From Alphaproteobacteria bacterium (lineage in GTDB: Bacteria; Pseudomonadota; Alphaproteobacteria; Bin95): a stretch of DNA of 64,000 nucleotides. Positions 3,507 to 40,716 of the stretch are shown piece by piece. The notes beneath the pieces are model-generated. The model saw only the letters and a list, made by a program, of their open reading frames with translations. It did no database searches and had not been told where the DNA came from. Positions within the stretch are counted from its first letter, which is position 1, and each line of letters begins with the position of its first letter. Position numbers and translations under genes: made by a program. Where the stretch lies: contig CBDBGH010000003.1 in the NCBI GenBank assembly GCA_965205265.1, forward strand, positions 4,384,001 through 4,448,000. The letters run 5' to 3'.

Positions 3507-4346
3507 TCAACCCTCGAAGGCGATGAAGGTCCTGAGTTCGATGCTCTCGCGCGGCGGGGCGGCGGGGTCCTGGTCCGGCAGAGCGAAGGCGCCGTGGGGC
3601 GTGTAGCGCGCGCGGCCGTCGTCCAGGCTGTCCCAGCCCTTGATGAGCAGCACCTCGTCGCGCTCCATATGCGGCGCCCAGTACCAGCGATGCGCGGGCG
3701 AAAAGGCGAGCTGGTAGATTTCGCCCACCCGGTCGGGAAAGACCTGGTCGGTGGCCAGCAGGTCCTCTTTCGGGATGCTGCCGGTATCGGCCAGCGCCAG
3801 CGGCGAGCGCGCGACCGGCCCCCGGATCGGCCGCCAGACATTGATCTGCACGATCCGCCCGCCCGAGCCCAGCACGCGGTCCACGGTCTCGCCGCCCAGC
3901 ACGTCGCGGGCGCGCTTCGGCCCCGAGTCGTCCGTATAGTCCACATGCACCCGGCCCGCCGGCATGCGCATGCCGTCCGGATTGGACGCGCTCGTGCCCG
4001 CATCCGAGCGCCGCGTGCGGTCGAACACGGTGGCGATGTCCGCTCCGGTCAGGCCTTTCAGCAGGTCCTCGACCTCCCGGTCATAGGCTTCGGCGCCTGC
4101 TCCGTCGTCGTAGAGGTCGTCCACCGCCGTCTCGTGCCGGCGCAGCTCGAATCCCGTCGCATCCAGCGACAGCCGATCCCGCTCGGCGCGCATGTCGTGG
4201 ATGACGACCGGGCGGTTCTCGGTCCTGAAATGGATCCGGGGCACTCCGCCCGTGATCTGCGAACTCTCGAACCAGGGCTTGGCGTCCTGGCGGACCGTGA
4301 AGGTGAGGTCCGCAACGATTTGGCTCGCATTGTGGGCATCCGGCAT
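3507..4346 (-). CDS. CmcJ/NvfI/AsaB-family oxidoreductase
   Basis: VHVDYT, INVWRPI, PLALAD, TPHGAF and RESIELR motifs. Confidence 0.8.
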   Translation of the reverse strand: MPDAHNASQIVADLTFTVRQDAKPWFESSQITGGVPRIHFRTENRPVVIHDMRAERDRLSLDATGFELRRHETAVDDLYDDGAGAEAYDREVEDLLKGLTGADIATVFDRTRRSDAGTSASNPDGMRMPAGRVHVDYTDDSGPKRARDVLGGETVDRVLGSGGRIVQINVWRPIRGPVARSPLALADTGSIPKEDLLATDQVFPDRVGEIYQLAFSPAHRWYWAPHMERDEVLLIKGWDSLDDGRARYTPHGAFALPDQDPAAPPRESIELRTFIAFEG

Positions 4347-29203: not shown

Positions 29204-30261
29204 CTAGAGCAGATTCGTTTCATTTGGGTTCATATCCGCATGCAGTGAAGAAGCTTCGGGCGTCCTGTGGAGTGACAGCATCGATGGCGTCGCGGATCGC
29301 ATCCCAGAGCGTATGGACGGAGCGTGCTGCGGCCTTTTTCAGGAGAGCCTTGATTTTGGAGAAGGCCATCTCGATGGGGTTGAAGTCGGGGCTGTAGGGC
29401 GGCAGGAACAGGATGCCGGCGCCTGTGGCCTCGATAGCTTCTCGGATGGCGATGGGCTTGTGGGCCGGCAGATTGTCGAGGATGACGGTGTCGCTTGGCC
29501 TCAGGGTCGGGGCCAGGACCTGTTCGACATAGGCAAGGAAGGCTGCCCCGGTCATCGCCCCATCGATGGTCATGGGGGCGAGGATGCCGTCGAGCGTGAG
29601 GCCGGCGACCAAAGTGGTGGTCTTCCAGTGACCATGGGGGACGGGAGCGCGGCAACGCTCGCCCCTGGGAGCCCGGCCATACATGCGGGCCATCTTGGTC
29701 GAGGTCCCGCTTTCGTCGATGAAGATCAGGCGCTCGGGGTCGAGCCCGGGCTGGTCTTCGAACCAGGCCTGACGCCGGCGTGCGACGTCCGGTCGGTCCT
29801 GCTCGGCAGCATGGGCCGTCTTTTTTTGCGCGTGATGCCGCGACGCTTGAAGAACCCATGCACCACGCTGGGCGGCGGCCGGTAGCCGACCGCCTCCTCA
29901 AGCCTGGCCGCGATCTCCTGGAGGGTCAGGTCGGGCTCCACCTCAACCCACCCCATGATCAGATCGCCGTGACCCTCAATGCGCCCTGGACGGCTACCGC
30001 CGCGTGGCTTCGGCGAGAGGTCGCCTGTCAGGCGCGATTGGCTCACCCAGCGGATCGCAGACGACACCCCGACGCCAAAACGCGCCGCAGCCTGCCGACG
30101 CGACATCCCGGACTCAACCGCTGCAACCACGCGCCGACGAAGATCAACAGAAAGAGACTGCGCCATGCGAGCTGGCCTCCTTCACCAGCCCCCATCGTGA
30201 ATCACATAATCCGCCAATTGGGAATCCCTCAACGATTCAATCGCCCGCGAATTCGCTCTAG
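29204..30261 (-). mobile_element. IS630-family element C (two ORFs, -1 frameshift)
   Basis: CTAGAGC ends. OrfA from 30166 (MAQSLSVDLR) and OrfB to 29220 ([17 protein letters not shown]); A7G at 29820-29827. Confidence 0.93.
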
Positions 30262-35076: not shown

Positions 35077-35712
35077 CTATCGGCTTTGCTGCGGCTCGAA
35101 GTCCTTGAGGGCCAGAAGCGCAGCGGCGGCGACCATCAATGTCCCGCACACGCGGTTGAGCAGACGGAATCCATGCGCCCGGATCCGGGTCGCGACCCTT
35201 GCGGACAGCCATCCCCAAGCCAGCAGGATCACGCCATCCGCGATCAGATAGGTACCGCCGAGAACCGAAAGCTGGGGAAGCACGGGAGCGGCGGGATCGA
35301 TGAACTGCGGGAAAAGAGCTGCGAAGAACATCACCGCAAACGGGTTGGCGCTCGACGTTACGAAACCCTGCCTGAACAGCCGCGACGCCGAACCGGCCAC
35401 GTTTGCCGCGGTATTTCCGCTCCGCGATTTCGAGATGAGAAGGCGCAGGCCGATCCAGGCCAGGTAGGCGACGCCCAGCCATTTGACGAGGCGGAACATC
35501 TCGGACGATGCGGCGATCGCAGCCGCGATGCCGAACGCGGCGGCGGTCATCTGGAGCATGTTCGCCGAGAGATCGCCTGCGATGGTCCAGCCCGTTCTCC
35601 GCAATCCGTAGCGGGCGCTGTTGGCGATGACGAGCAGCTGGCTCGTGTCCGGCGGAGTCGCAAAGAACACTGCAAGCGCCGCCAGGTAGAGCAGGTAGGT
35701 CTCCACGGTCAC
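35077..35712 (-). CDS. LysE/RhtB family exporter
   Basis: TPPD, KWLGVAYL and GFVTSSANP motifs. Confidence 0.88.
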   Translation of the reverse strand: MTVETYLLYLAALAVFFATPPDTSQLLVIANSARYGLRRTGWTIAGDLSANMLQMTAAAFGIAAAIAASSEMFRLVKWLGVAYLAWIGLRLLISKSRSGNTAANVAGSASRLFRQGFVTSSANPFAVMFFAALFPQFIDPAAPVLPQLSVLGGTYLIADGVILLAWGWLSARVATRIRAHGFRLLNRVCGTLMVAAAALLALKDFEPQQSR

Positions 35713-35739: not shown

Positions 35740-36633
35740 TCAATCCTTGCGCGGCCTGGCGCTGTAGTCGCCGAAGGGGGCGTCGCGGGCGGCGGCGGTG
35801 CGGCGCATGCCCTGCTCGGCAAGGCTTTCGGCCCAGCGATAGGCTTCCTCTGTATGCCGCGTCATGCCGTCGAACAGCGTGCCGAGCAGTTGCGTCGTGC
35901 GCAGCCCCATATTCTCGAAGGCCTGGTTGATGAGCAGCTTGTTGAGGGCCAGCTGGTTGGCCGGAATGTGCTCGAAGCGCCTCGCGTGGGCCAAGGCGCG
36001 CTCGTCCAGCTCTTCCGGCGGGCAGACATGCGAGACGAGGCCGATGCGGTGCGCCGTTTCCGCGTCGATGGCGTCGCCGCTCAGCAGGAACTGCTTGGCG
36101 TGTTCGAGCCCGAGGCGATAGACCCAGAGCATCGTCGTGGGCGTGCCGTAGATCCGGGACGGCGCGTAGCCGATATAAGCGTCCTCGGCCATGAACAGCA
36201 GGTCGCAGCAGAGCACGAGGTCCGTGGCGCCCCCGACCGCCCAGCCATGTATCGCGCCCAGCACCGGCTTCGGGCAGTCCCATATCTTCATGAACCGCTC
36301 GACATTGCGCCCCATGCTGCGGTAGTCGCGCACCGGGTCCCAGGCGCCGGGGCGCGGCTCCGGGCGCGGCGCGTTGTAAGGCTGGGACCAGCCGGCCTCC
36401 AGCGAGGCGCCGGTCGCCTCCAGGTCGTAGCCGGCGGTGAACGCCCGCCCCTCGCCGCGCAGCACGACCGCGCGCACGGCGGCCGAGGCGGAGGCGCGGT
36501 CGATGGCGCCGGCCACGCCCTCGACCATCTCCTCGGTCAGCGTGTTCAGCCGTTCGGGGCGGTTGAGCGAGACGACGGCGACGGGGCCCCGCTCCTCATA
36601 GAGGACGACCGGGTCCGCCACGGGCGCTGTCAC
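35740..36633 (-). CDS. Crotonase/enoyl-CoA hydratase family protein
   Basis: LNRPERLN, AFTAGYDL and KPVLGAIHGWAVGG; GTG start overlaps the glutaredoxin stop. Confidence 0.9.
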   Translation of the reverse strand: MTAPVADPVVLYEERGPVAVVSLNRPERLNTLTEEMVEGVAGAIDRASASAAVRAVVLRGEGRAFTAGYDLEATGASLEAGWSQPYNAPRPEPRPGAWDPVRDYRSMGRNVERFMKIWDCPKPVLGAIHGWAVGGATDLVLCCDLLFMAEDAYIGYAPSRIYGTPTTMLWVYRLGLEHAKQFLLSGDAIDAETAHRIGLVSHVCPPEELDERALAHARRFEHIPANQLALNKLLINQAFENMGLRTTQLLGTLFDGMTRHTEEAYRWAESLAEQGMRRTAAARDAPFGDYSARPRKD

Positions 36634-36887
36634 TCCAGGCCCAGCAGCCGGTCGAGGGCCTCGCGGGTGAGCGCGTCGCCGGCGAGGAACGTCCCGTCCA
36701 CCTCTATGGCGGGCGTGCCCCTTATGCGGGCGGCGTCGAGGCGGTCCTGCGCGTCCTCGTCCATCATCAGGTCCCGCCGGGCAAACGCGACGCCGCGCGA
36801 CTCCAGATAGCGCTTCACCTGCTCGCAGGGCGCGCAGAGCGGCGTGGTGTAGAGCGTGACCTCCGGCGCCGCCGTCATGGCGCTCAC
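36630..36887 (-). CDS. Glutaredoxin/NrdH-like redoxin
   Basis: LYTTPLCAPC (CxxC) and GTP cis-Pro loop; start GTG 36887 or ATG 36878. Confidence 0.85.
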   Translation of the reverse strand: MSAMTAAPEVTLYTTPLCAPCEQVKRYLESRGVAFARRDLMMDEDAQDRLDAARIRGTPAIEVDGTFLAGDALTREALDRLLGLE

Positions 36888-37768
36888 ACCCTGCCCGCCG
36901 CGCGAAGCTGCCGGTATTCCTCCTTGCGCGCCATCCACTGGGCGTGCGTGGCCTCGTCCTGCCAGGGCTGCTCAGCGGTGAAGACGAGACGCTTCCAATC
37001 CTCGCCGGCGCTCCAGCGGAAGCCGGCCTCGCGCGTGGTGCGCGGCCCCTCGGCGGTTTCCAGCAGGTCGAGCGCCATCTGGAAGATTTGGCGCTGCTGG
37101 GCGGTGTCCCAGGGCTCGCCGCAGGGGCTGCCGAGCGGGAAGTCGGTGAAGACATAGCGGGCGACGCCGCAATGCTCGACAATGTCGCGCGCCGCCCCGA
37201 TCACCACGGTCGGGATGCCCGCCGCCTCGATATGCCTGCTGATCAGACTCACGGTCTGATGGCAGACGGGTCAGACAGGCACCATGAGGAGCGCGTCGAT
37301 GCCGTCCTCGCGGCACCAGGCCAGCGCCTTGGGCGCCTCCTCGGTCATCACCTTGCGCTTGCTGTAGTTGTTGTAGCAGCCGTAGAGCCGGTCCGGCATG
37401 CCCGCGACCCGCCCGTCCGCCACCGCCTCGCGCAGCCGGTCCACCGGGTAGTAGGCGTTCACGTCGTCCAGATGGGTGGCGAAGCGGTCGAAGGACGCGG
37501 TGCGGCTGTAGAGCTTCTCCGTCGGCGTGTCGGCGGAGAAGGAATAGACGCCGCGGAAGTCCTCCTCGACGACGGGGTTCTCCTCCGTCTCCGGGTCGTA
37601 GCGCACCGCGATCTCGCTGGTGCCGATCAGCCCGACGCGGCACTCGACAAGCGGCTTCGCGAGGCGCGCGAACGGCGCCTCCTCGAAATGCGCCCACTCA
37701 TAGGGCTTCTCATAGCCCTGCCGGATATAGTCCTCGCGCGTGCGGTCGATATAGCGCACCGGTTCCAT
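36884..37768 (-). CDS. GrdB/PrdB-like (glycine/betaine/proline reductase selenoprotein B family) selenoprotein, 294 aa, Sec166
   Basis: The two listed ORFs (37271-37828 and 36884-37252) share one frame, separated only by TGA at 37271-37273. Read-through gives DALLMVPV-U-PVCHQTVSLISRHIEAAGIPTV (UxxC). Confidence 0.88.
37237..37264 (-). promoter_or_regulatory. Putative bacterial SECIS element
   Basis: AUCAGAC-CGUGA-GUCUGAU perfect 7-bp stem starting 10 nt after the UGA, with G in the apical loop. Confidence 0.75.
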
Positions 37769-38425
37769 GCATCCCTCCTTCCGGCCTCGTCCCGCCCGAT
37801 TAGACGCCCCGCGCCGCCCGACGGTCAAGACGGAACGGTCCGGATTGCGTTGACCGGCCGCGACATCCCCGGCGCGTCATGTTTCGTCATGCGGCGCCAT
37901 GAGCCTTCCTGGCGATGTGTCATGAAATGTCATGATCCGCATACCGAGGGTTTATATGCCGTAGCCGAATTGGGCATGAAGCCGTCCATTCGGGCAGGGG
38001 TTCCGGGTATTCCATCCGTGTTCCCGGACCTGGTGTTTTCGGCATGTGCCCTTCCTTTCGTTCCGTCTTCGCTCGTTCTGCCCGCCGCCGCGCCGAACGC
38101 GGCGAACACTGCGGATGGCGGCGTTGGCGCCGCCTTGGGCTCGCCGCGTAGCGGGACCCTGTTTCGCGCGTAATCCCGCGCGCGCCTGCGCCCGTGGGCG
38201 CGTGTTACGCGGCGGCGCGGTTCGTGCGCCTGATTGCGCGCGCGAGGCGGCGGACGCACCTTTCCCGTCGACTTCTCGGGTATTTTTTCGCGCCGGTGCG
38301 AAACGGCTCCCAGGACGCCGTTTCATTTCCTGCAAGGTACTGTAGCACAAGATCTGCGAAAATCAATTCATATCCAAGAATTATTACAAATAATTCATGA
38401 ACAATATGCTGGTGACAAATCTACG

Positions 38426-40009
38426 CTACGGCGCGGGGAGCAGCACGCCGGGGTTCATGATGCCGGCGGGGTCGAGCGCGGCCTTGGCGCCCTTGAGCGC
38501 GGCGGCGAAGATGTCGGAGCGCTGGCGGGTGTACCAGGGCATGTGGTCCCGCCCGACGGCGTGGTGGTGGGTGATGGTGCCGCCGGCGTCGATGATCGCG
38601 TCCGAAACCGCGTTCTTGACCGTGTCGTATTGGGCCGAAAGCCGGCCCTGCTCGCCGAGGCCGATAAAGGTGAAATAGGGCGCCGGCCCGTCGGGATAGA
38701 CATGGGTGAAACGGCAGGCGACGATTCCCGGACGCCCCGTCGCCTCCTGGAGCGCGCGCGCCGCCGCGCCCCCCACCTCGCGGTGGAAGTCCTCGAACCG
38801 GTCCCAGGTGATCGCAGTCTCGAAGGTCTCGCGGATGATGGCGCGCGCGGTCAGCATCTCGCGCATGTGCCCGCCCTTGATGAAGGCGTCGCGCCAGCGC
38901 GCGGCCGCGTTCCCGCCGCCGCCTCTCTCTTCCGGCAACCGGCCGCCATGGTCCCGGCAGCATTCGAGCGCGCGCGCCATCCAGGCGTCGAGCGCATGGT
39001 CGGCGCTCTCGAAACCCAGCACCAGCACCGCGGCCGAGCCGTCTCCGGCGCCCGACCAGCGCACCTCGTTATGATCCAGCAGGCGCAGATTGGCGGGATA
39101 GAGCCCGGCCTGGGAGATGGCGCGCACGGCCTCCGCCCCGTCCATGAAACGCGCGAACTCGACCGAGTGGCCGGCGCGGAAGCCCGGGCGGTCCTGCAGG
39201 CGCATCCAGGCCTCGGTGACGATGCCGAGTGCGCCCTCGGAGCCGAGGAAGAGCCGGTCGGGGCTCGGGCCCGCGCCGGAGCCGGGCAGGCGGAAGCTGT
39301 CGTGAACGCCCGCCGGCGTCACGGCGCGCACGCTCTCCGTCATGTCGTCGATATGGGTGAGCCCGGTGGCGTAGTGGCCGGCGCCGCGGGTCGCGATCCA
39401 GCCGCCCAGCGTCGAATATTCGAAGCTCTGCGGGTAGTAGCGGAGCGTCAGGCCGTGAGGCCGGAGCTGTTCTTCGAGGTGGGGACCGTACACGCCCGCC
39501 TGTATGCGCGCGGCGCGCGAGGTGCGGTCGATTTCCAGCACCTTGTCCATGGCGCCCATGTCGATGGAGACCGCGCCCTTGAAGCCGCCGCCGACTTGCG
39601 GATGCACCCCGCCCACCACGGAGGAGCCGCCGCCGAAGGGAATGGCCGCCGCGCCCGCCTCCGCGCACCAGTCGAGCAGCGCCGCAACCTCGCCCTCGTC
39701 GCGCGGGCGGGCCACCAGGTCCGGCGCGCCGGCGAAGTCGCGGTCCATGATGCGGACCTGCTCGTGGAACGAACGCCCGAAGGTGTGCACCAGGCGCTCC
39801 CACTTGTCGTCCGTGGTGACGGGCGCAAGCGAGGAAGGCGGCGCCAGGCGCGGCGGGGCGATCTCGATCTCGTCCACGGTCGGGAACGGCCGGGCCTCGA
39901 AGCCGTCAACCCCGAACACCGCGGCATAGTCCGCCTCGAAGGGCTTCATCTCCTCGTCGGTAAAGCCCTCGCCGACCTTGCCCCAACCCCAGAATTTCCG
40001 CCGCGCCAT
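38426..40009 (-). CDS. FAD-linked oxidase (alkylglycerone-phosphate synthase/VAO-PCMH family)
   Basis: PFGGGSSVVGG, PQSFEYSTLGGW, GSEGALG, THHHAVG and MNPG motifs. Confidence 0.9.
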   Translation of the reverse strand: MARRKFWGWGKVGEGFTDEEMKPFEADYAAVFGVDGFEARPFPTVDEIEIAPPRLAPPSSLAPVTTDDKWERLVHTFGRSFHEQVRIMDRDFAGAPDLVARPRDEGEVAALLDWCAEAGAAAIPFGGGSSVVGGVHPQVGGGFKGAVSIDMGAMDKVLEIDRTSRAARIQAGVYGPHLEEQLRPHGLTLRYYPQSFEYSTLGGWIATRGAGHYATGLTHIDDMTESVRAVTPAGVHDSFRLPGSGAGPSPDRLFLGSEGALGIVTEAWMRLQDRPGFRAGHSVEFARFMDGAEAVRAISQAGLYPANLRLLDHNEVRWSGAGDGSAAVLVLGFESADHALDAWMARALECCRDHGGRLPEERGGGGNAAARWRDAFIKGGHMREMLTARAIIRETFETAITWDRFEDFHREVGGAAARALQEATGRPGIVACRFTHVYPDGPAPYFTFIGLGEQGRLSAQYDTVKNAVSDAIIDAGGTITHHHAVGRDHMPWYTRQRSDIFAAALKGAKAALDPAGIMNPGVLLPAP

Positions 40010-40094
40010 CGCCCCGTCTCCCTGTCGCAGGCGGGAATTCTGGCATGCCGGCCGCCGGGGCGGAAGGGGCAACGGCGTATTGCAGTTGTATTCG

Positions 40095-40108
40095 ATATTG
40101 GTCAATAT
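40095..40108. promoter_or_regulatory. Putative parDE operator
   Basis: Palindrome ATATTG-GT-CAATAT in an AT-rich promoter region 30 bp upstream of the antitoxin. Confidence 0.5.
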
Positions 40109-40138
40109 GAGGACAATCATAAGCAGGAGGGCCAGTCC

Positions 40139-40405
40139 ATGGGGCGCGCAATGACGATGACAGTTCGCCTGAGCGGCCCGCTCAGTGATTTCGTTGCGGC
40201 CAATGTCGGCGAGACCGGCGACTATGAGAGCGTCAGCGAGTATGTCCGCGACCTGATACGGCGGGACAAGGCCCGCTCGGAGCAGGAGGCCTTCGACCGC
40301 CTCAAGGCGGAGCTGGAACGCGCCTTCGCGGCACCGGACGATACCTATCGTGAATTGTCCGCCGGCGACATAATTTCGCGAAGCGGGGCGCGGCCCGGCG
40401 CATGA
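40139..40405 (+). CDS. ParD-like RHH antitoxin
   Basis: GDYESVSEYVRDLIRRD; AGGAGG RBS. Confidence 0.88.
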   Translation: MGRAMTMTVRLSGPLSDFVAANVGETGDYESVSEYVRDLIRRDKARSEQEAFDRLKAELERAFAAPDDTYRELSAGDIISRSGARPGA

Positions 40406-40716
40406 CAAGGGTACGCGTCCAGAGGGCCGCCGCACTCCGTATCGAGGAAATCTACCGCTACAGCCGCGAGCGCTGGGGCGAAGCCCAGGCGGAATCCTAT
40501 GTCACGGGCCTGTTCGAAGCCTTCGATGACATCGCAACCGGCGCGGTCGCGTCGCGCCCGGTTCCGGCGGAGTTCGGAGTGGAGGGCTATGTCTTCCGCT
40601 ACCGGAGGCATTTCATCTACTGGAAGACCCTGAGCGACGGAGCGATCGGCATCGTCACCGTACTTCACGAACGCATGCACCGGGTCGAACGCTTCCAGGA
40701 AGACCGCGAGCCGTAA
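40402..40716 (+). CDS. ParE/RelE family toxin
   Basis: YSRERWGEAQA..Y, HFIYW and VLHERM; ATGA overlap with the antitoxin. Confidence 0.88.
   Translation: MTRVRVQRAAALRIEEIYRYSRERWGEAQAESYVTGLFEAFDDIATGAVASRPVPAEFGVEGYVFRYRRHFIYWKTLSDGAIGIVTVLHERMHRVERFQEDREP

What the first reader, a model, noticed from the sequence alone, without database searches (positions are those of the whole stretch)
36884..37768. Hidden selenoprotein: stand-alone GrdB/PrdB-like reductase with UxxC and a SECIS hairpin
Seen: two ORFs called separately share a frame and are divided by one TGA (37271-37273). Read-through gives VPV-U-PV-C-HQTV, and a perfect 7-bp stem-loop (AUCAGAC/CGUGA/GUCUGAU) begins 10 nt after the UGA. 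Known: Sec followed by xxC is the active site of glycine/betaine reductase GrdB and D-proline reductase PrdB, and the E. coli fdhF SECIS sits about 11 nt after its UGA. Inference: this is one 294-aa selenoenzyme. No prdA, grdE, grdA or grdC partners are nearby, and the organism has many O2-dependent enzymes, so its chemistry is probably not Stickland reduction.
Basis: partly seen in the sequence, partly recalled or inferred. Interest (0 to 1): 0.85.

Follow-up and report, generated by a model that had tools for sequence, protein, structure and literature searches.

The report
PrdB-like selenoprotein gene with glutaredoxin partner
The two "separate" reading frames are one real gene for a selenocysteine-containing relative of proline-reductase subunit B, read through a UGA with the help of an RNA hairpin and paired with a small glutaredoxin-like gene; the call is right, but this family has been on selenoprotein lists since 2005 and its substrate is still unknown.

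Summary
A minus-strand gene (37768..36884, 294 codons) carries one in-frame TGA at codon 166 in the motif U-P-V-C. A perfect 7-bp hairpin starts 10 nt downstream.

Comparative evidence shows the UGA is very probably read as selenocysteine:
- All 109 family matches in 36 of 37 genomes of the same order carry exactly one TGA.
- All 36 full-length database homologues have Cys at that column.
- The closest database entries stop at residue 165.
- In 103 unique Sec-form loci from many phyla, the hairpin codons are frozen at synonymous sites and two stem pairs covary. None of 21 Cys forms keeps a perfect stem.
- The part after the UGA is under the same purifying selection as the part before it.
- The genome has selA, selB, selD and tRNA-Sec.

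No GrdE/PrdA or GrdA family gene was found in the genome, so this is not a Stickland reductase.

An 82-aa CxPC glutaredoxin-like gene starts 5 nt after the stop, and 59 of the 71 loci in this clade have it.

The family is already catalogued as "proline reductase PrdB" in the Sargasso Sea and GOS surveys, and this scan has met it before on other DNA. It is a new member of a known kind with unknown substrate.

The parts
36884..37768 (-). PrdB-like selenoprotein gene: 294 codons plus TGA stop, with Sec at codon 166
   Evidence: Translation with TGA=U. NCBIfam TIGR04483 PrdB scores E 1.9e-27 and 96 bits, covering residues 32-238, below the cut-off of 300. Orthologues at 72-97% identity over residues 1-294, each with one TGA. 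dN/dS is 0.09-0.28 on both sides of the UGA.
37271..37273 (-). UGA read as selenocysteine (codon 166, motif U-P-V-C)
   Evidence: TGA at this column in 103 of 103 unique Sec-form loci, and TGT/TGC in 21 of 21 Cys forms. Two outliers were checked by hand: L146 has TGA and L062 has Cys. Cys in 36 of 36 full-length database homologues.
37242..37260 (-). Core SECIS hairpin: 7-bp stem AUCAGAC/GUCUGAU, loop CGUGA, starting 10 nt after the UGA and lying inside codons 170-176 (HQTVSLI)
   Evidence: On alignment A2 (36 sequences, 33 distinct) 98.7% of cells are paired. Two of 7 pairs show compensatory change (UA<->CG in 13 cells, GC<->AU in 2 cells), and 0 of 500 shuffles reach the observed score. Codons 172-174 are ACC, GTG and AGT in 103, 103 and 101 of 103 Sec forms, against GTG in 0 of 21 and AGT in 0 of 21 Cys forms.
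37234..37267 (-). Possible extended SECIS: a lower stem GUCUGC/GCAGGC around the core hairpin
   Evidence: Minimum-free-energy fold of this sequence. The register of the lower stem differs in other loci, so it is not established.
37773..37779 (-). Shine-Dalgarno-like AGGAGGG, 4 nt before the ATG
   Evidence: Read directly from the sequence.
36630..36878 (-). Glutaredoxin-like partner gene: 82 aa, CAPC motif, ATG 5 nt after the selenoprotein stop
   Evidence: Pfam PF00462 at 2.2e-12. NCBIfam TIGR02196 (YruB-family) scores 54 bits, below the cut-off of 88.55. A homologue lies directly downstream in 59 of 124 unique loci, all inside one clade of 71 rows with SH-aLRT 100. C15 and C18 are invariant in 28 aligned sequences.
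35740..36621 (-). Crotonase/enoyl-CoA hydratase family gene: GTG start 8 nt after the glutaredoxin stop, probably the same operon
   Evidence: NF006128 scores 299.8 bits, above the cut-off of 257. Junction read. Conserved downstream only within the genus.
35077..35712 (-). LysE/RhtB-type exporter gene, 27 nt after the hydratase gene on the same strand
   Evidence: Pfam PF01810 at 3e-25. NF007812 scores 108 bits, below its cut-off.

Best explanation
This is one gene for a 294-residue selenoprotein of the PrdB-like branch of the glycine/betaine/sarcosine/D-proline reductase 'protein B' superfamily.

Shown or strongly supported:
- The UGA at codon 166 is conserved and alternates only with Cys codons in relatives.
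- It is followed by a hairpin at SECIS distance that is kept by selection on the RNA itself.
- The downstream half is under purifying selection.
- The genome has the full Sec machinery.

SelB-dependent insertion of Sec at U166 is therefore the expected reading.

Inferred:
- U166 and C169 sit at the start of a helix that follows a beta-strand. They act as a selenol/thiol redox pair that attacks a substrate and ends each turnover as a selenenylsulfide.
- The co-transcribed, probably translationally coupled CxPC glutaredoxin-like protein reduces that selenenylsulfide again. It would take the place that PrdC or thioredoxin has in the clostridial enzymes.
- No pyruvoyl subunit (PrdA/GrdE) is found in the genome, so the substrate is not D-proline or glycine handled in the Stickland way.
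- The substrate is unknown. The operon here (hydratase, LysE exporter), and a roughly twofold excess of acyl-CoA enzymes near family members, point weakly to a small carboxylate or acyl-CoA-linked compound.

The confidence given (0.85) is for the whole statement read as 'a real Sec-encoding gene of the catalogued PrdB-like family, not a Stickland subunit, with a conserved glutaredoxin-like partner gene'. Taken alone, the Sec call is about 0.95 and the inferred redox cycle with the partner about 0.5.
For: UGA/Cys alternation:
- 109 of 109 family matches in 36 of 37 genomes of the order have exactly one TGA.
- In a class-wide sample, 30 of 401 genomes have the family. Of 43 matches, 27 have one TGA, 14 have no stop, 1 has TGA plus TAG and 1 has TAG.
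- 36 of 36 full-length database homologues have Cys at column 166.
- 84 of the 120 best database hits cover only the N-terminal 55-64% of the query, and 81 of them are 165-166 aa long, so they end at the UGA.

SECIS:
- 94 of 103 unique Sec forms make 7 of 7 stem pairs, 7 make 6 and 2 make 5.
- 0 of 21 Cys forms make 7 of 7.
- Synonymous sites of codons 172-174 are frozen in Sec forms only.
- Two of 7 stem pairs show compensatory changes.

Selection: dN/dS is 0.09-0.28 after the UGA, as before it, in 9 orthologue pairs.

Sec machinery:
- selA scores 531 bits and selB 435 bits, and the two genes are adjacent.
- selD scores 277 bits.
- tRNA-Sec scores 72.6 bits and has anticodon tca.

Homology: TIGR04483 PrdB matches at 1.9e-27 over residues 32-238. 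By my arithmetic from the aligned ranges, U166 falls near profile position 153. PrdB of C. difficile has Sec at 151 (passage in PMC11229817).

Partner: the glutaredoxin-like gene is directly downstream in 59 of 71 rows of the clade, in both Sec and Cys forms.

No pyruvoyl subunit: PF09338 is found in 0 of 11 genomes that carry the family. A positive control rang elsewhere.

Structure: the AF2 model has pLDDT 92 and pTM 0.90, with strand 159-163 followed by helix 167-182.

RNA: contigs from RNA libraries of two studies (1237 and 1381 nt, from close relatives) bridge both the UGA and the junction with the glutaredoxin gene.
Against: - There is no direct evidence of selenium in the protein. Nothing here shows translation past the UGA in this organism.
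- RNA-library contigs may contain DNA and show neither transcript ends nor translation.
- The hairpin alone is only z = -2.3 against shuffles, and no Rfam family matches it.
- Part of the hairpin follows from the conserved peptide itself: the codons for H/V, Q/L and T/S are complementary, and 9 of 21 Cys forms still make 6 of 7 pairs. Conservation is therefore not wholly independent of the protein.
- The redox cycle and the role of the glutaredoxin-like protein rest on synteny and analogy only.
- The acyl-CoA association is weak: 24 of 94 loci within 1.5 kb against 11% of random windows in one genome, with kin not independent.
- The hydratase neighbour is conserved only within the genus.
Confidence: 0.85

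Rival explanations
1. The protein is a general thiol/selenol redox protein, for example a peroxide, disulfide or persulfide reductase working with its glutaredoxin. In this reading it is not a substrate-cleaving reductase of the PrdB kind.
For: The UxxC motif sits at a helix start, as in thiol oxidoreductases. It has a dedicated glutaredoxin-like partner. Rhodanese genes lie nearby in 5 loci. The surveys list the family among thiol-dependent redox selenoproteins (passage in PMC1088965).
Against: Homology is to the substrate-attacking subunit PrdB over nearly its whole length. Many residues far from the UxxC motif are invariant, which suggests a defined ligand pocket. The fold is a two-lobed alpha/beta type rather than a thioredoxin fold: best VIA-align Z 9.4 to LacI/SDR-like chains, which is generic.
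Confidence: 0.25
2. It is a true Stickland-type D-proline or glycine/betaine reductase B subunit that works with partner subunits encoded elsewhere or not recognised.
For: PrdB is the best-scoring named family. Public sources label relatives 'D-proline reductase (dithiol) PrdB'.
Against: - The score is far below the equivalog cut-off (96 against 300 bits).
- PF09338 (PrdA/GrdE) was not found in this genome or in 10 other genomes with the family, and the control rang elsewhere.
- PF04723 (GrdA) was not found (no positive control).
- The genome has two haem-copper oxidase genes.
- The motif is U-P-V-C-H-Q-T, without the third Cys of the UxxCxxC motif given for GrdB in a review passage (PMC13188914).
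Confidence: 0.03
3. The UGA mostly terminates translation, or is read by near-cognate suppression, so the functional product is the 165-residue N-terminal piece or a non-Sec read-through protein.
For: Gene callers and databases hold the 165-aa form. Sec insertion is never complete in bacteria (general knowledge).
Against: The part after the UGA is under purifying selection equal to the part before it. The hairpin is kept only where the codon is TGA. Homologues replace TGA only by Cys codons. The catalytic motif would be cut in two.
Confidence: 0.03
4. It is a pseudogene or a true split gene created by a nonsense mutation or a sequencing error.
For: A single in-frame stop in one genome, taken alone, looks like this.
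Against: The same TGA is present in 103 unique loci from many phyla and in 109 of 109 matches in the order. dN/dS is below 0.3 downstream of it. RNA-library contigs of relatives keep the arrangement.
Confidence: 0.01

Closest known systems
The 'Proline reductase PrdB' UxxC selenoprotein family of the Sargasso Sea and GOS selenoproteome surveys (Zhang, Fomenko & Gladyshev 2005, PMC1088965; Zhang & Gladyshev 2008, PMC2398784; passages and tables read)
   Same: - The UxxC motif with Sec.
- Relation to pfam07355/PrdB.
- Both Sec and Cys forms exist: GOS lists 235 Sec and 110 Cys sequences.
- It is abundant in oxic marine bacteria, and many of the relatives found here are marine MAGs.
   Different: I could not match sequences one to one with the survey sets. 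The papers treat the family as proline reductase. In the passages I read they do not separate a PrdA-less, glutaredoxin-linked clade.
PrdB, selenoprotein subunit of clostridial D-proline reductase (NCBIfam TIGR04483; C. difficile PrdB U151, PMC11229817, passages read)
   Same: Homologous over almost the whole PrdB length (residues 32-238 against profile positions 19-220 of 238). Sec is at the equivalent position, in UxxC.
   Different: - The score is 96 bits against a cut-off of 300.
- It has about 30 extra N-terminal and 55 extra C-terminal residues.
- No PrdA pyruvoyl subunit is found in the genome.
- It has a glutaredoxin-like neighbour in place of the PrdC that the read paper passages name as PrdB's reductant; PrdC itself was not searched for here.
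- The host is capable of aerobic respiration.
GrdB/GrdF/GrdH, substrate-specific selenoprotein B of glycine/sarcosine/betaine reductases (TIGR01917, TIGR01918, NF040794, NF040795; PF07355)
   Same: Weak homology of the C-terminal two thirds (E 1.7e-9 to 2.2e-7). Sec followed by xxC.
   Different: About 140 residues shorter. All scores are far below their cut-offs. There is no third Cys of the UxxCxxC motif. No GrdA (PF04723) or GrdE (PF09338) was found in the genome.
E. coli fdhF SECIS (recalled from the literature, not read here)
   Same: A hairpin in the coding sequence directly after the UGA, with a spacer of about 10-11 nt before the upper stem-loop and G and U in the apical loop.
   Different: Different sequence. 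Here the element lies inside a strongly conserved peptide (HQTVSL) whose codons are complementary to one another.
YruB/NrdH-type glutaredoxin-like proteins (TIGR02196, TIGR02194), for the partner gene
   Same: About 80 aa, a CxxC motif at the same place, and a glutaredoxin fold family.
   Different: Below both cut-offs (54 against 88.55 bits and 34 against 85.75 bits). It has its own conserved CxPC and DLMMDE motifs and is fixed next to PrdB-like genes.

Membership tests
Bacterial selenoprotein gene (SelB/SECIS-dependent UGA recoding) | In-frame UGA conserved in orthologues | tested here: met
   109 of 109 matches in the order have one TGA. 103 unique Sec-form loci carry TGA at the same codon.
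Bacterial selenoprotein gene (SelB/SECIS-dependent UGA recoding) | Cys (and nothing else) at the same column in homologues without UGA | tested here: met
   36 of 36 full-length database homologues. 21 of 21 Cys-form loci have TGT/TGC. L062 also has Cys.
Bacterial selenoprotein gene (SelB/SECIS-dependent UGA recoding) | Hairpin at SECIS distance after the UGA, supported by covariation and specific to UGA forms | tested here: met
   One outlier (L146) has a shifted hairpin. bSECISearch was not available, and Rfam has no matching family.
Bacterial selenoprotein gene (SelB/SECIS-dependent UGA recoding) | selA, selB, selD and tRNA-Sec in the genome | tested here: met
   All are above the curated or gathering cut-offs.
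Bacterial selenoprotein gene (SelB/SECIS-dependent UGA recoding) | Selenium found in the protein at that residue | not testable with these tools
   Needs 75Se labelling or mass spectrometry.
D-proline reductase PrdB (TIGR04483 equivalog) | Score at or above the curated cut-off of 300 bits | tested here: not met
   96.2 bits.
D-proline reductase PrdB (TIGR04483 equivalog) | Pyruvoyl subunit PrdA (PF09338) encoded with it | tested here: not met
   No PF09338 match in the genome, which is 98.98% complete. None in 10 further genomes with the family. The control rang in 1 of 81 other genomes.
D-proline reductase PrdB (TIGR04483 equivalog) | Sec in UxxC at the position of PrdB U151 | tested here: met
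   By my arithmetic from the aligned ranges (residues 32-238 against profile positions 19-220), U166 falls near profile position 153. U151 is taken from PMC11229817.
Glycine/sarcosine/betaine reductase protein B (TIGR01917/TIGR01918/PF07355) | Score at or above the family cut-offs | tested here: not met
   TIGR01918 scores 32.3 against 65.45 bits and TIGR01917 scores 30.1 against 602 bits. Pfam gives no hit at E <= 0.01 for the query, though PF07355 is precomputed on some homologues.
Glycine/sarcosine/betaine reductase protein B (TIGR01917/TIGR01918/PF07355) | GrdA (PF04723) and GrdE (PF09338) partners | tested here: not met
   The PF04723 search had no positive control, so its absence is less certain.
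Marine 'Proline reductase PrdB' UxxC selenoprotein family (survey lists) | UxxC motif, PrdB/pfam07355 relation, Sec and Cys forms side by side | tested here: met
   and the tables read.
Marine 'Proline reductase PrdB' UxxC selenoprotein family (survey lists) | Sequence identity with the survey's own members | not tested
   The survey sequences were not fetched.
Glutaredoxin-linked PrdB-like clade (defined here) | CxPC glutaredoxin-like gene directly downstream on the same strand | tested here: met
   The window has a 5-nt gap. 59 of 71 rows of the clade with SH-aLRT 100 have the gene.

The most novel reading that the evidence does not exclude
The PrdB-like protein and its glutaredoxin-like partner form a self-contained two-protein selenoenzyme. 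It would carry out PrdB-type reductive cleavage of a C-X bond next to a carboxyl or thioester WITHOUT any pyruvoyl subunit, in aerobes, drawing electrons from the glutathione/glutaredoxin pool. Its substrate would be a product of acyl-CoA or osmolyte metabolism.

In addition, Sec would be ancestral in this clade. The SECIS would be written into the conserved HQTVSL peptide, so that this 'protein motif' is partly an RNA motif, which Cys forms keep as a decaying fossil.
Probability: 0.2. Interest if true: 0.65.

Novelty: new member of a known kind. Interest (0 to 1): 0.3.

Why it matters
For annotation: the gene and nearly all its close relatives are stored in public databases as 165-residue fragments. 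Of the 120 best hits, 84 are N-terminal pieces. NCBIfam release 20 gives no hit above its curated cut-off, so none of its models names the protein. A rule combining the UGA, the invariant hairpin and the PVCHQTVSL context would repair hundreds of records.

For biology: the family is one of the commonest selenoproteins of oxic marine and soil bacteria, and the papers I read label it only as proline reductase. In the genomes checked here it lacks the subunit that reaction needs. The conserved glutaredoxin partner gives a concrete, testable two-protein system. This window itself adds a further member, a local operon (hydratase and LysE exporter) and a clean Sec-against-Cys codon contrast. It does not add a new kind of element.

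Tried and rejected
- Pfam scan of the read-through protein: no family at E <= 0.01.
- PDB by sequence: only chance-level rows, E 0.43-0.66.
- Foldseek against PDB with the AF2 model: nothing at E <= 0.001.
- VIA-align over 48,161 chains: best Z 9.4 (LacI-type and SDR-type alpha/beta chains). This is in the range the tool calls common, so it shows no specific relative, and no PrdB/GrdB structure appears to be solved.
- Rfam at E <= 10 over 36800-37800: six chance-level rows, none on the hairpin.
- Promoter/terminator scan of 36300-38500: two promoter-like sites near 38367-38418 and no terminator-like site, so nothing informative.
- Small ORFs in the 650-nt upstream gap (37930-38350): similar only in the nearest relative, so not treated as genes.
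Binding therefore remains untested.
- Positive control for the PF09338 search: 10 genomes carrying the family gave none, and it was finally found in 1 of 81 genomes of another class. No positive control was obtained for PF04723.
- RNA-library contigs: X3 and X4 cover only parts of the gene. The contig ends (36547/36481 and 37783/37860) are not taken as transcript ends.
- Acyl-CoA neighbourhood: only about twofold over one genome's background, so it is kept as a weak lead and not used to name a substrate.
- Literature searches for a characterised stand-alone form ('PrdB-like', 'GrdB-like', 'selenoprotein B-like', 'PrdB homolog'; prdB + selenoprotein + aerobic + Alphaproteobacteria + prdA; D-proline reductase + selenocysteine + marine + metagenome + prdB) found none in the held library. 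Subscription journals are not covered.
- Earlier notes near this place in the same genome: none.
Full report
**1. Observation**

The feature is on the minus strand. The gene starts with ATG at 37768..37766, four bases after an AGGAGGG Shine-Dalgarno-like site at 37779..37773. It ends with TGA at 36886..36884. The mechanical ORF list splits it into 37271..37828(-) and 36884..37252(-), which share a frame.

Read with TGA=U the gene gives 294 residues with U166 in ...LLMVPV-U-PVC-HQTVSL.... The TGA is at 37273..37271. Ten bases later comes a perfect hairpin, AUCAGAC / CGUGA / GUCUGAU (37260..37242). A lower stem can extend it to about 37267..37234.

Taken alone, the 71-nt fold is only modestly unusual: -31.3 kcal/mol, z = -2.3, and 3 of 200 shuffles fold at least as well.

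**2. Is the UGA a Sec codon? Homologues**

NCBIfam places the protein nearest to PrdB. TIGR04483 matches at E 1.9e-27 and 96 bits over residues 32-238 against profile positions 19-220 of 238, far below the equivalog cut-off of 300. The GrdB/GrdF/GrdH models match more weakly. Pfam gives nothing at E <= 0.01.

In the 5.8-billion-protein search, 1686 proteins matched and the best 120 were listed.
- 36 of the 120 are full length (282-312 aa) at 43-57% identity.
- 84 cover only the N-terminal 55-64% of the query at 65-93% identity. Of these, 81 are 165-166 aa long, so the gene callers stopped at the UGA.
- All 36 full-length homologues have Cys at column 166, in PVCPVCHQT(I/V)SL.

**3. The DNA of relatives**

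In the window's own order the family was found in 36 of 37 genomes, with 2-5 copies per genome. All 109 listed matches contain exactly one TGA.

In an even sample of the class, 30 of 401 genomes have it at E <= 1e-40. Of 43 matches, 27 have one TGA, 14 have no stop, 1 has TGA plus TAG and 1 has TAG.

I fetched three sets of loci:
- 30 loci from the order search.
- All 14 no-stop places and 6 of the TGA places from the class search.

Four duplicates were dropped. That left 124 unique loci matching the motif: 103 with TGA and 21 with TGT/TGC at the column.

Two loci did not match my pattern and were checked by hand.
- L146 has TGA followed by PVCHMS and a shifted hairpin.
- L062 has Cys followed by P-L-D, so it lacks the second Cys.

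No locus has a residue other than Sec or Cys at this column.

**4. The hairpin**

In the 103 Sec forms, codons 172-174 are ACC (103), GTG (103) and AGT (101; the other 2 are GGT). Codon 171 is CAG in 100 and CAA in 3. Codon 175 is CTG in 99, TTG in 3 and CTC in 1. The neighbouring codons 167-169 use all synonymous forms freely.

The stem makes 7 of 7 pairs in 94 Sec forms, 6 in 7 and 5 in 2. In the 21 Cys forms, GTG at codon 173 and AGT at codon 174 never occur, and none makes 7 of 7 pairs.

However, 9 of the Cys forms still make 6 of 7 pairs (ACCAGAC / CAUCA / GCCUGGU). The peptide HQT-x-SLV is built of mutually complementary codons, so part of the pairing comes with the protein. These Cys forms look like decaying SECIS remnants.

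On an alignment of 36 Sec-form segments (33 distinct), 98.7% of cells pair. Two of seven pairs change on both sides: U-A to C-G in 13 cells and G-C to A-U in 2 cells. No shuffle out of 500 reaches the observed covariation score, and slid registers pair in 14-30% of cells.

The spacing (10 nt to the stem, loop starting 17 nt after the UGA) fits what I recall of the E. coli fdhF element and of bacterial SECIS rules. That comparison is recalled, not tested here.

**5. Selection and machinery**

For nine orthologue pairs, dN/dS is 0.09-0.28 in codons 167-294 and 0.09-0.28 in codons 1-165. The part after the UGA is therefore translated and constrained.

The genome (98.98% complete) has all four Sec components.
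- selA scores 531.5 bits against a cut-off of 267.9.
- selB scores 435.2 bits against 242.25, and lies next to selA.
- selD scores 277.1 bits against 125.
- tRNA-Sec scores 72.6 bits against a gathering score of 47, and ARAGORN gives anticodon tca.

TGA is also this gene's own stop codon, so the genetic code is not reassigned.

**6. Not a Stickland reductase**

PF09338 (PrdA/GrdE) and PF04723 (GrdA) give no match in the genome. PF09338 is also missing from 10 further genomes that carry the family. The same search found it at 1.5e-137 in 1 of 81 genomes of another class, which serves as a positive control. PF04723 has no such control.

The genome has two haem-copper oxidase subunit I genes. The motif is U-P-V-C-H-Q-T and lacks the third Cys of the UxxCxxC motif that a review passage gives for GrdB (PMC13188914).

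**7.

Five bases after the stop codon starts an 82-aa gene (36878..36630) with a CAPC motif. It matches Pfam Glutaredoxin at 2.2e-12 and TIGR02196 (YruB family) at 54 bits, below the cut-off of 88.55.

Eight bases after that gene's stop, a crotonase/enoyl-CoA hydratase gene starts with GTG at 36621 (NF006128, 299.8 bits against a cut-off of 257). A LysE/RhtB-type exporter gene follows 27 bases later. A gap of about 650 nt upstream holds no conserved ORF.

A homologue of the small redoxin lies directly downstream in 59 of the 124 unique loci. On a quick maximum-likelihood tree of the 124 proteins, all 59 fall in one clade of 71 rows with SH-aLRT 100. Besides these 59, the clade holds:
- a subclade of 7 where an O-methyltransferase gene takes that place,
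- 4 rows without a recognised neighbour,
- 1 row followed by a CoA-transferase gene.

The clade spans Alpha-, Beta- and Gammaproteobacteria, SAR324, Rokubacteria and Acidimicrobiales, by record titles. It contains 61 Sec and 10 Cys forms and needs at least 4 Sec/Cys switches. The whole tree needs at least 8. In 28 aligned partner proteins the two Cys of CxPC are invariant.

**8. Further context (weak)**

Recurrent neighbour families are CoA-transferase III (16 loci), SDR (15), acyl-CoA dehydrogenase (14), enoyl-CoA hydratase (13) and AMP-dependent ligase (13).

With home-made profiles, at least one of the four acyl-CoA families lies within 1.5 kb in 24 of 94 loci and within 6 kb in 43 of 94. 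The figures for random windows of the window's own genome are 11% and 24%. That is about twofold, with related genomes and a single background genome, so it is only a lead.

The second paralogue of this genome (C3:4133663-4134445, 46% identical, one TGA) is also followed directly by a crotonase gene, and then by a copper amine oxidase gene. The genome has about 35 crotonase genes, and the two concerned are only 27% identical.

**9. Structure**

An AlphaFold2 model built from 37 aligned sequences is confident (mean pLDDT 92, pTM 0.90). It places U166 between strand 159-163 and helix 167-182, at a helix start with C169 one turn on. That geometry is usual for redox-active CxxC-type pairs; this is inference.

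No solved relative was found by sequence or by Foldseek. The wide structural search gives only generic two-lobed alpha/beta matches, with best Z 9.4.

**10. Expression hint**

In RNA libraries of two studies, assembled contigs of close relatives lie on 36547-37783 (1237 nt, 32 differences) and 36481-37860 (1381 nt, 55 differences). They bridge both the UGA and the junction with the redoxin gene. Such contigs may include DNA and show neither transcript ends nor translation.

**11. What is known**

The Sargasso Sea survey lists 'Proline reductase PrdB', motif UXXC, with 42 Sec genes. That makes it the third most abundant selenoprotein family there (PMC1088965, passages and tables). The GOS survey lists 235 Sec and 110 Cys sequences under pfam07355 (PMC2398784, table passages). 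Two reviews count D-proline reductase PrdB among the most widespread bacterial selenoproteins (PMC9312934 and PMC13188914, passages).

Three full-text searches found no paper that separates or characterises a PrdA-less, glutaredoxin-linked form. The held library lacks most subscription journals.

This scan has reported the same family, including the glutaredoxin partner, several times on other DNA. Those notes agree with what I tested here.

**12. Verdict**

The gene is a genuine Sec-encoding member of a long-catalogued, functionally unsolved family.

Its likely working is a U166/C169 selenol-thiol cycle, re-reduced by a dedicated glutaredoxin-like partner and acting on an unknown small substrate. 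This is inferred, not shown. Interest is modest because neither the family nor its partner is new. The open question, which is what one of the commonest selenoproteins of oxic bacteria does, remains open.

Noticed in passing
L152:1862-4078 (+), = G000 contig C3 about 4509861-4512077 (outside the window): The genome's selD is the C-terminal half of a 738-aa frame. The N-terminal half is a pyridine nucleotide-disulfide oxidoreductase domain (PF07992 at 7.9e-25, then AIRS and AIRS_C). I recall such fusions from the selenium-genomics literature but did not check.
   Followed up: partly
L151:4518-5894 (+), = G000 contig C3 4133663-4134445 (outside the window): A second PrdB-like gene in the same genome, 46% identical, also with one in-frame TGA. 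It has no glutaredoxin-like neighbour but is followed directly by another crotonase gene and then a copper amine oxidase gene. Both paralogues sitting next to crotonase genes is unexplained.
   Followed up: partly
Genomes G001-G036: The window's order is rich in this family: 2-5 copies per genome and 109 of 109 matches with one TGA. This includes a class lying in 410-440-aa frames (GrdB-like length, about 32% identity). PF09338 was nevertheless not found in the 5 such genomes tested.
   Followed up: partly
Loci L051, L079-L083, L088, L089, L091, L094, L104 (Cys forms): Cys forms inside the glutaredoxin-linked clade keep a near-hairpin, pairing at 5 or 6 of 7 positions in all but one of those seen (L082: 4). 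The Val and Ser codons are changed from those fixed in Sec forms (GTG to ATC, and AGT to AGC or another Ser codon). They look like recent Sec-to-Cys conversions carrying a fossil SECIS.
   Followed up: partly
L146:6475-6520 (+): A Dehalococcoidia member has U-PVCHMS instead of U-PVCHQT. The usual stem is lost (3 of 7 pairs by eye). A shifted 5-bp hairpin (CCGUG/AGUCU/CACGG) could replace it.
   Followed up: no
L062 (G299), minus strand near 4200-4240: A distant Cys-form homologue (37% identity) has C-P-L-D in place of U/C-P-V-C, so it lacks the resolving Cys.
   Followed up: no
Loci L100, L107-L109, L111, L117, L142: A well-supported subclade (7 rows, SH-aLRT 100) has an O-methyltransferase gene (PF00891) directly downstream in place of the glutaredoxin-like gene.
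   Followed up: no
Loci L041, L043, L047-L049: Another paralogue group in the same family of genomes is followed by a TauD/TfdA-type dioxygenase gene and two small conserved ORFs of unknown family.
   Followed up: no
window 29220-29693 (-): A 157-aa ORF matching only the DDE_3 transposase domain (PF13358 at 4.7e-29), probably a fragment of an insertion sequence.
   Followed up: no
window 38426-40435 (-): Upstream neighbour on the same strand: an FAD-linked oxidase (FAD_binding_4 plus FAD-oxidase_C, GlcD-like at 108 bits, far below the cut-off). It is separated from the selenoprotein gene by a gap of about 650 nt that holds no conserved ORF.
   Followed up: partly
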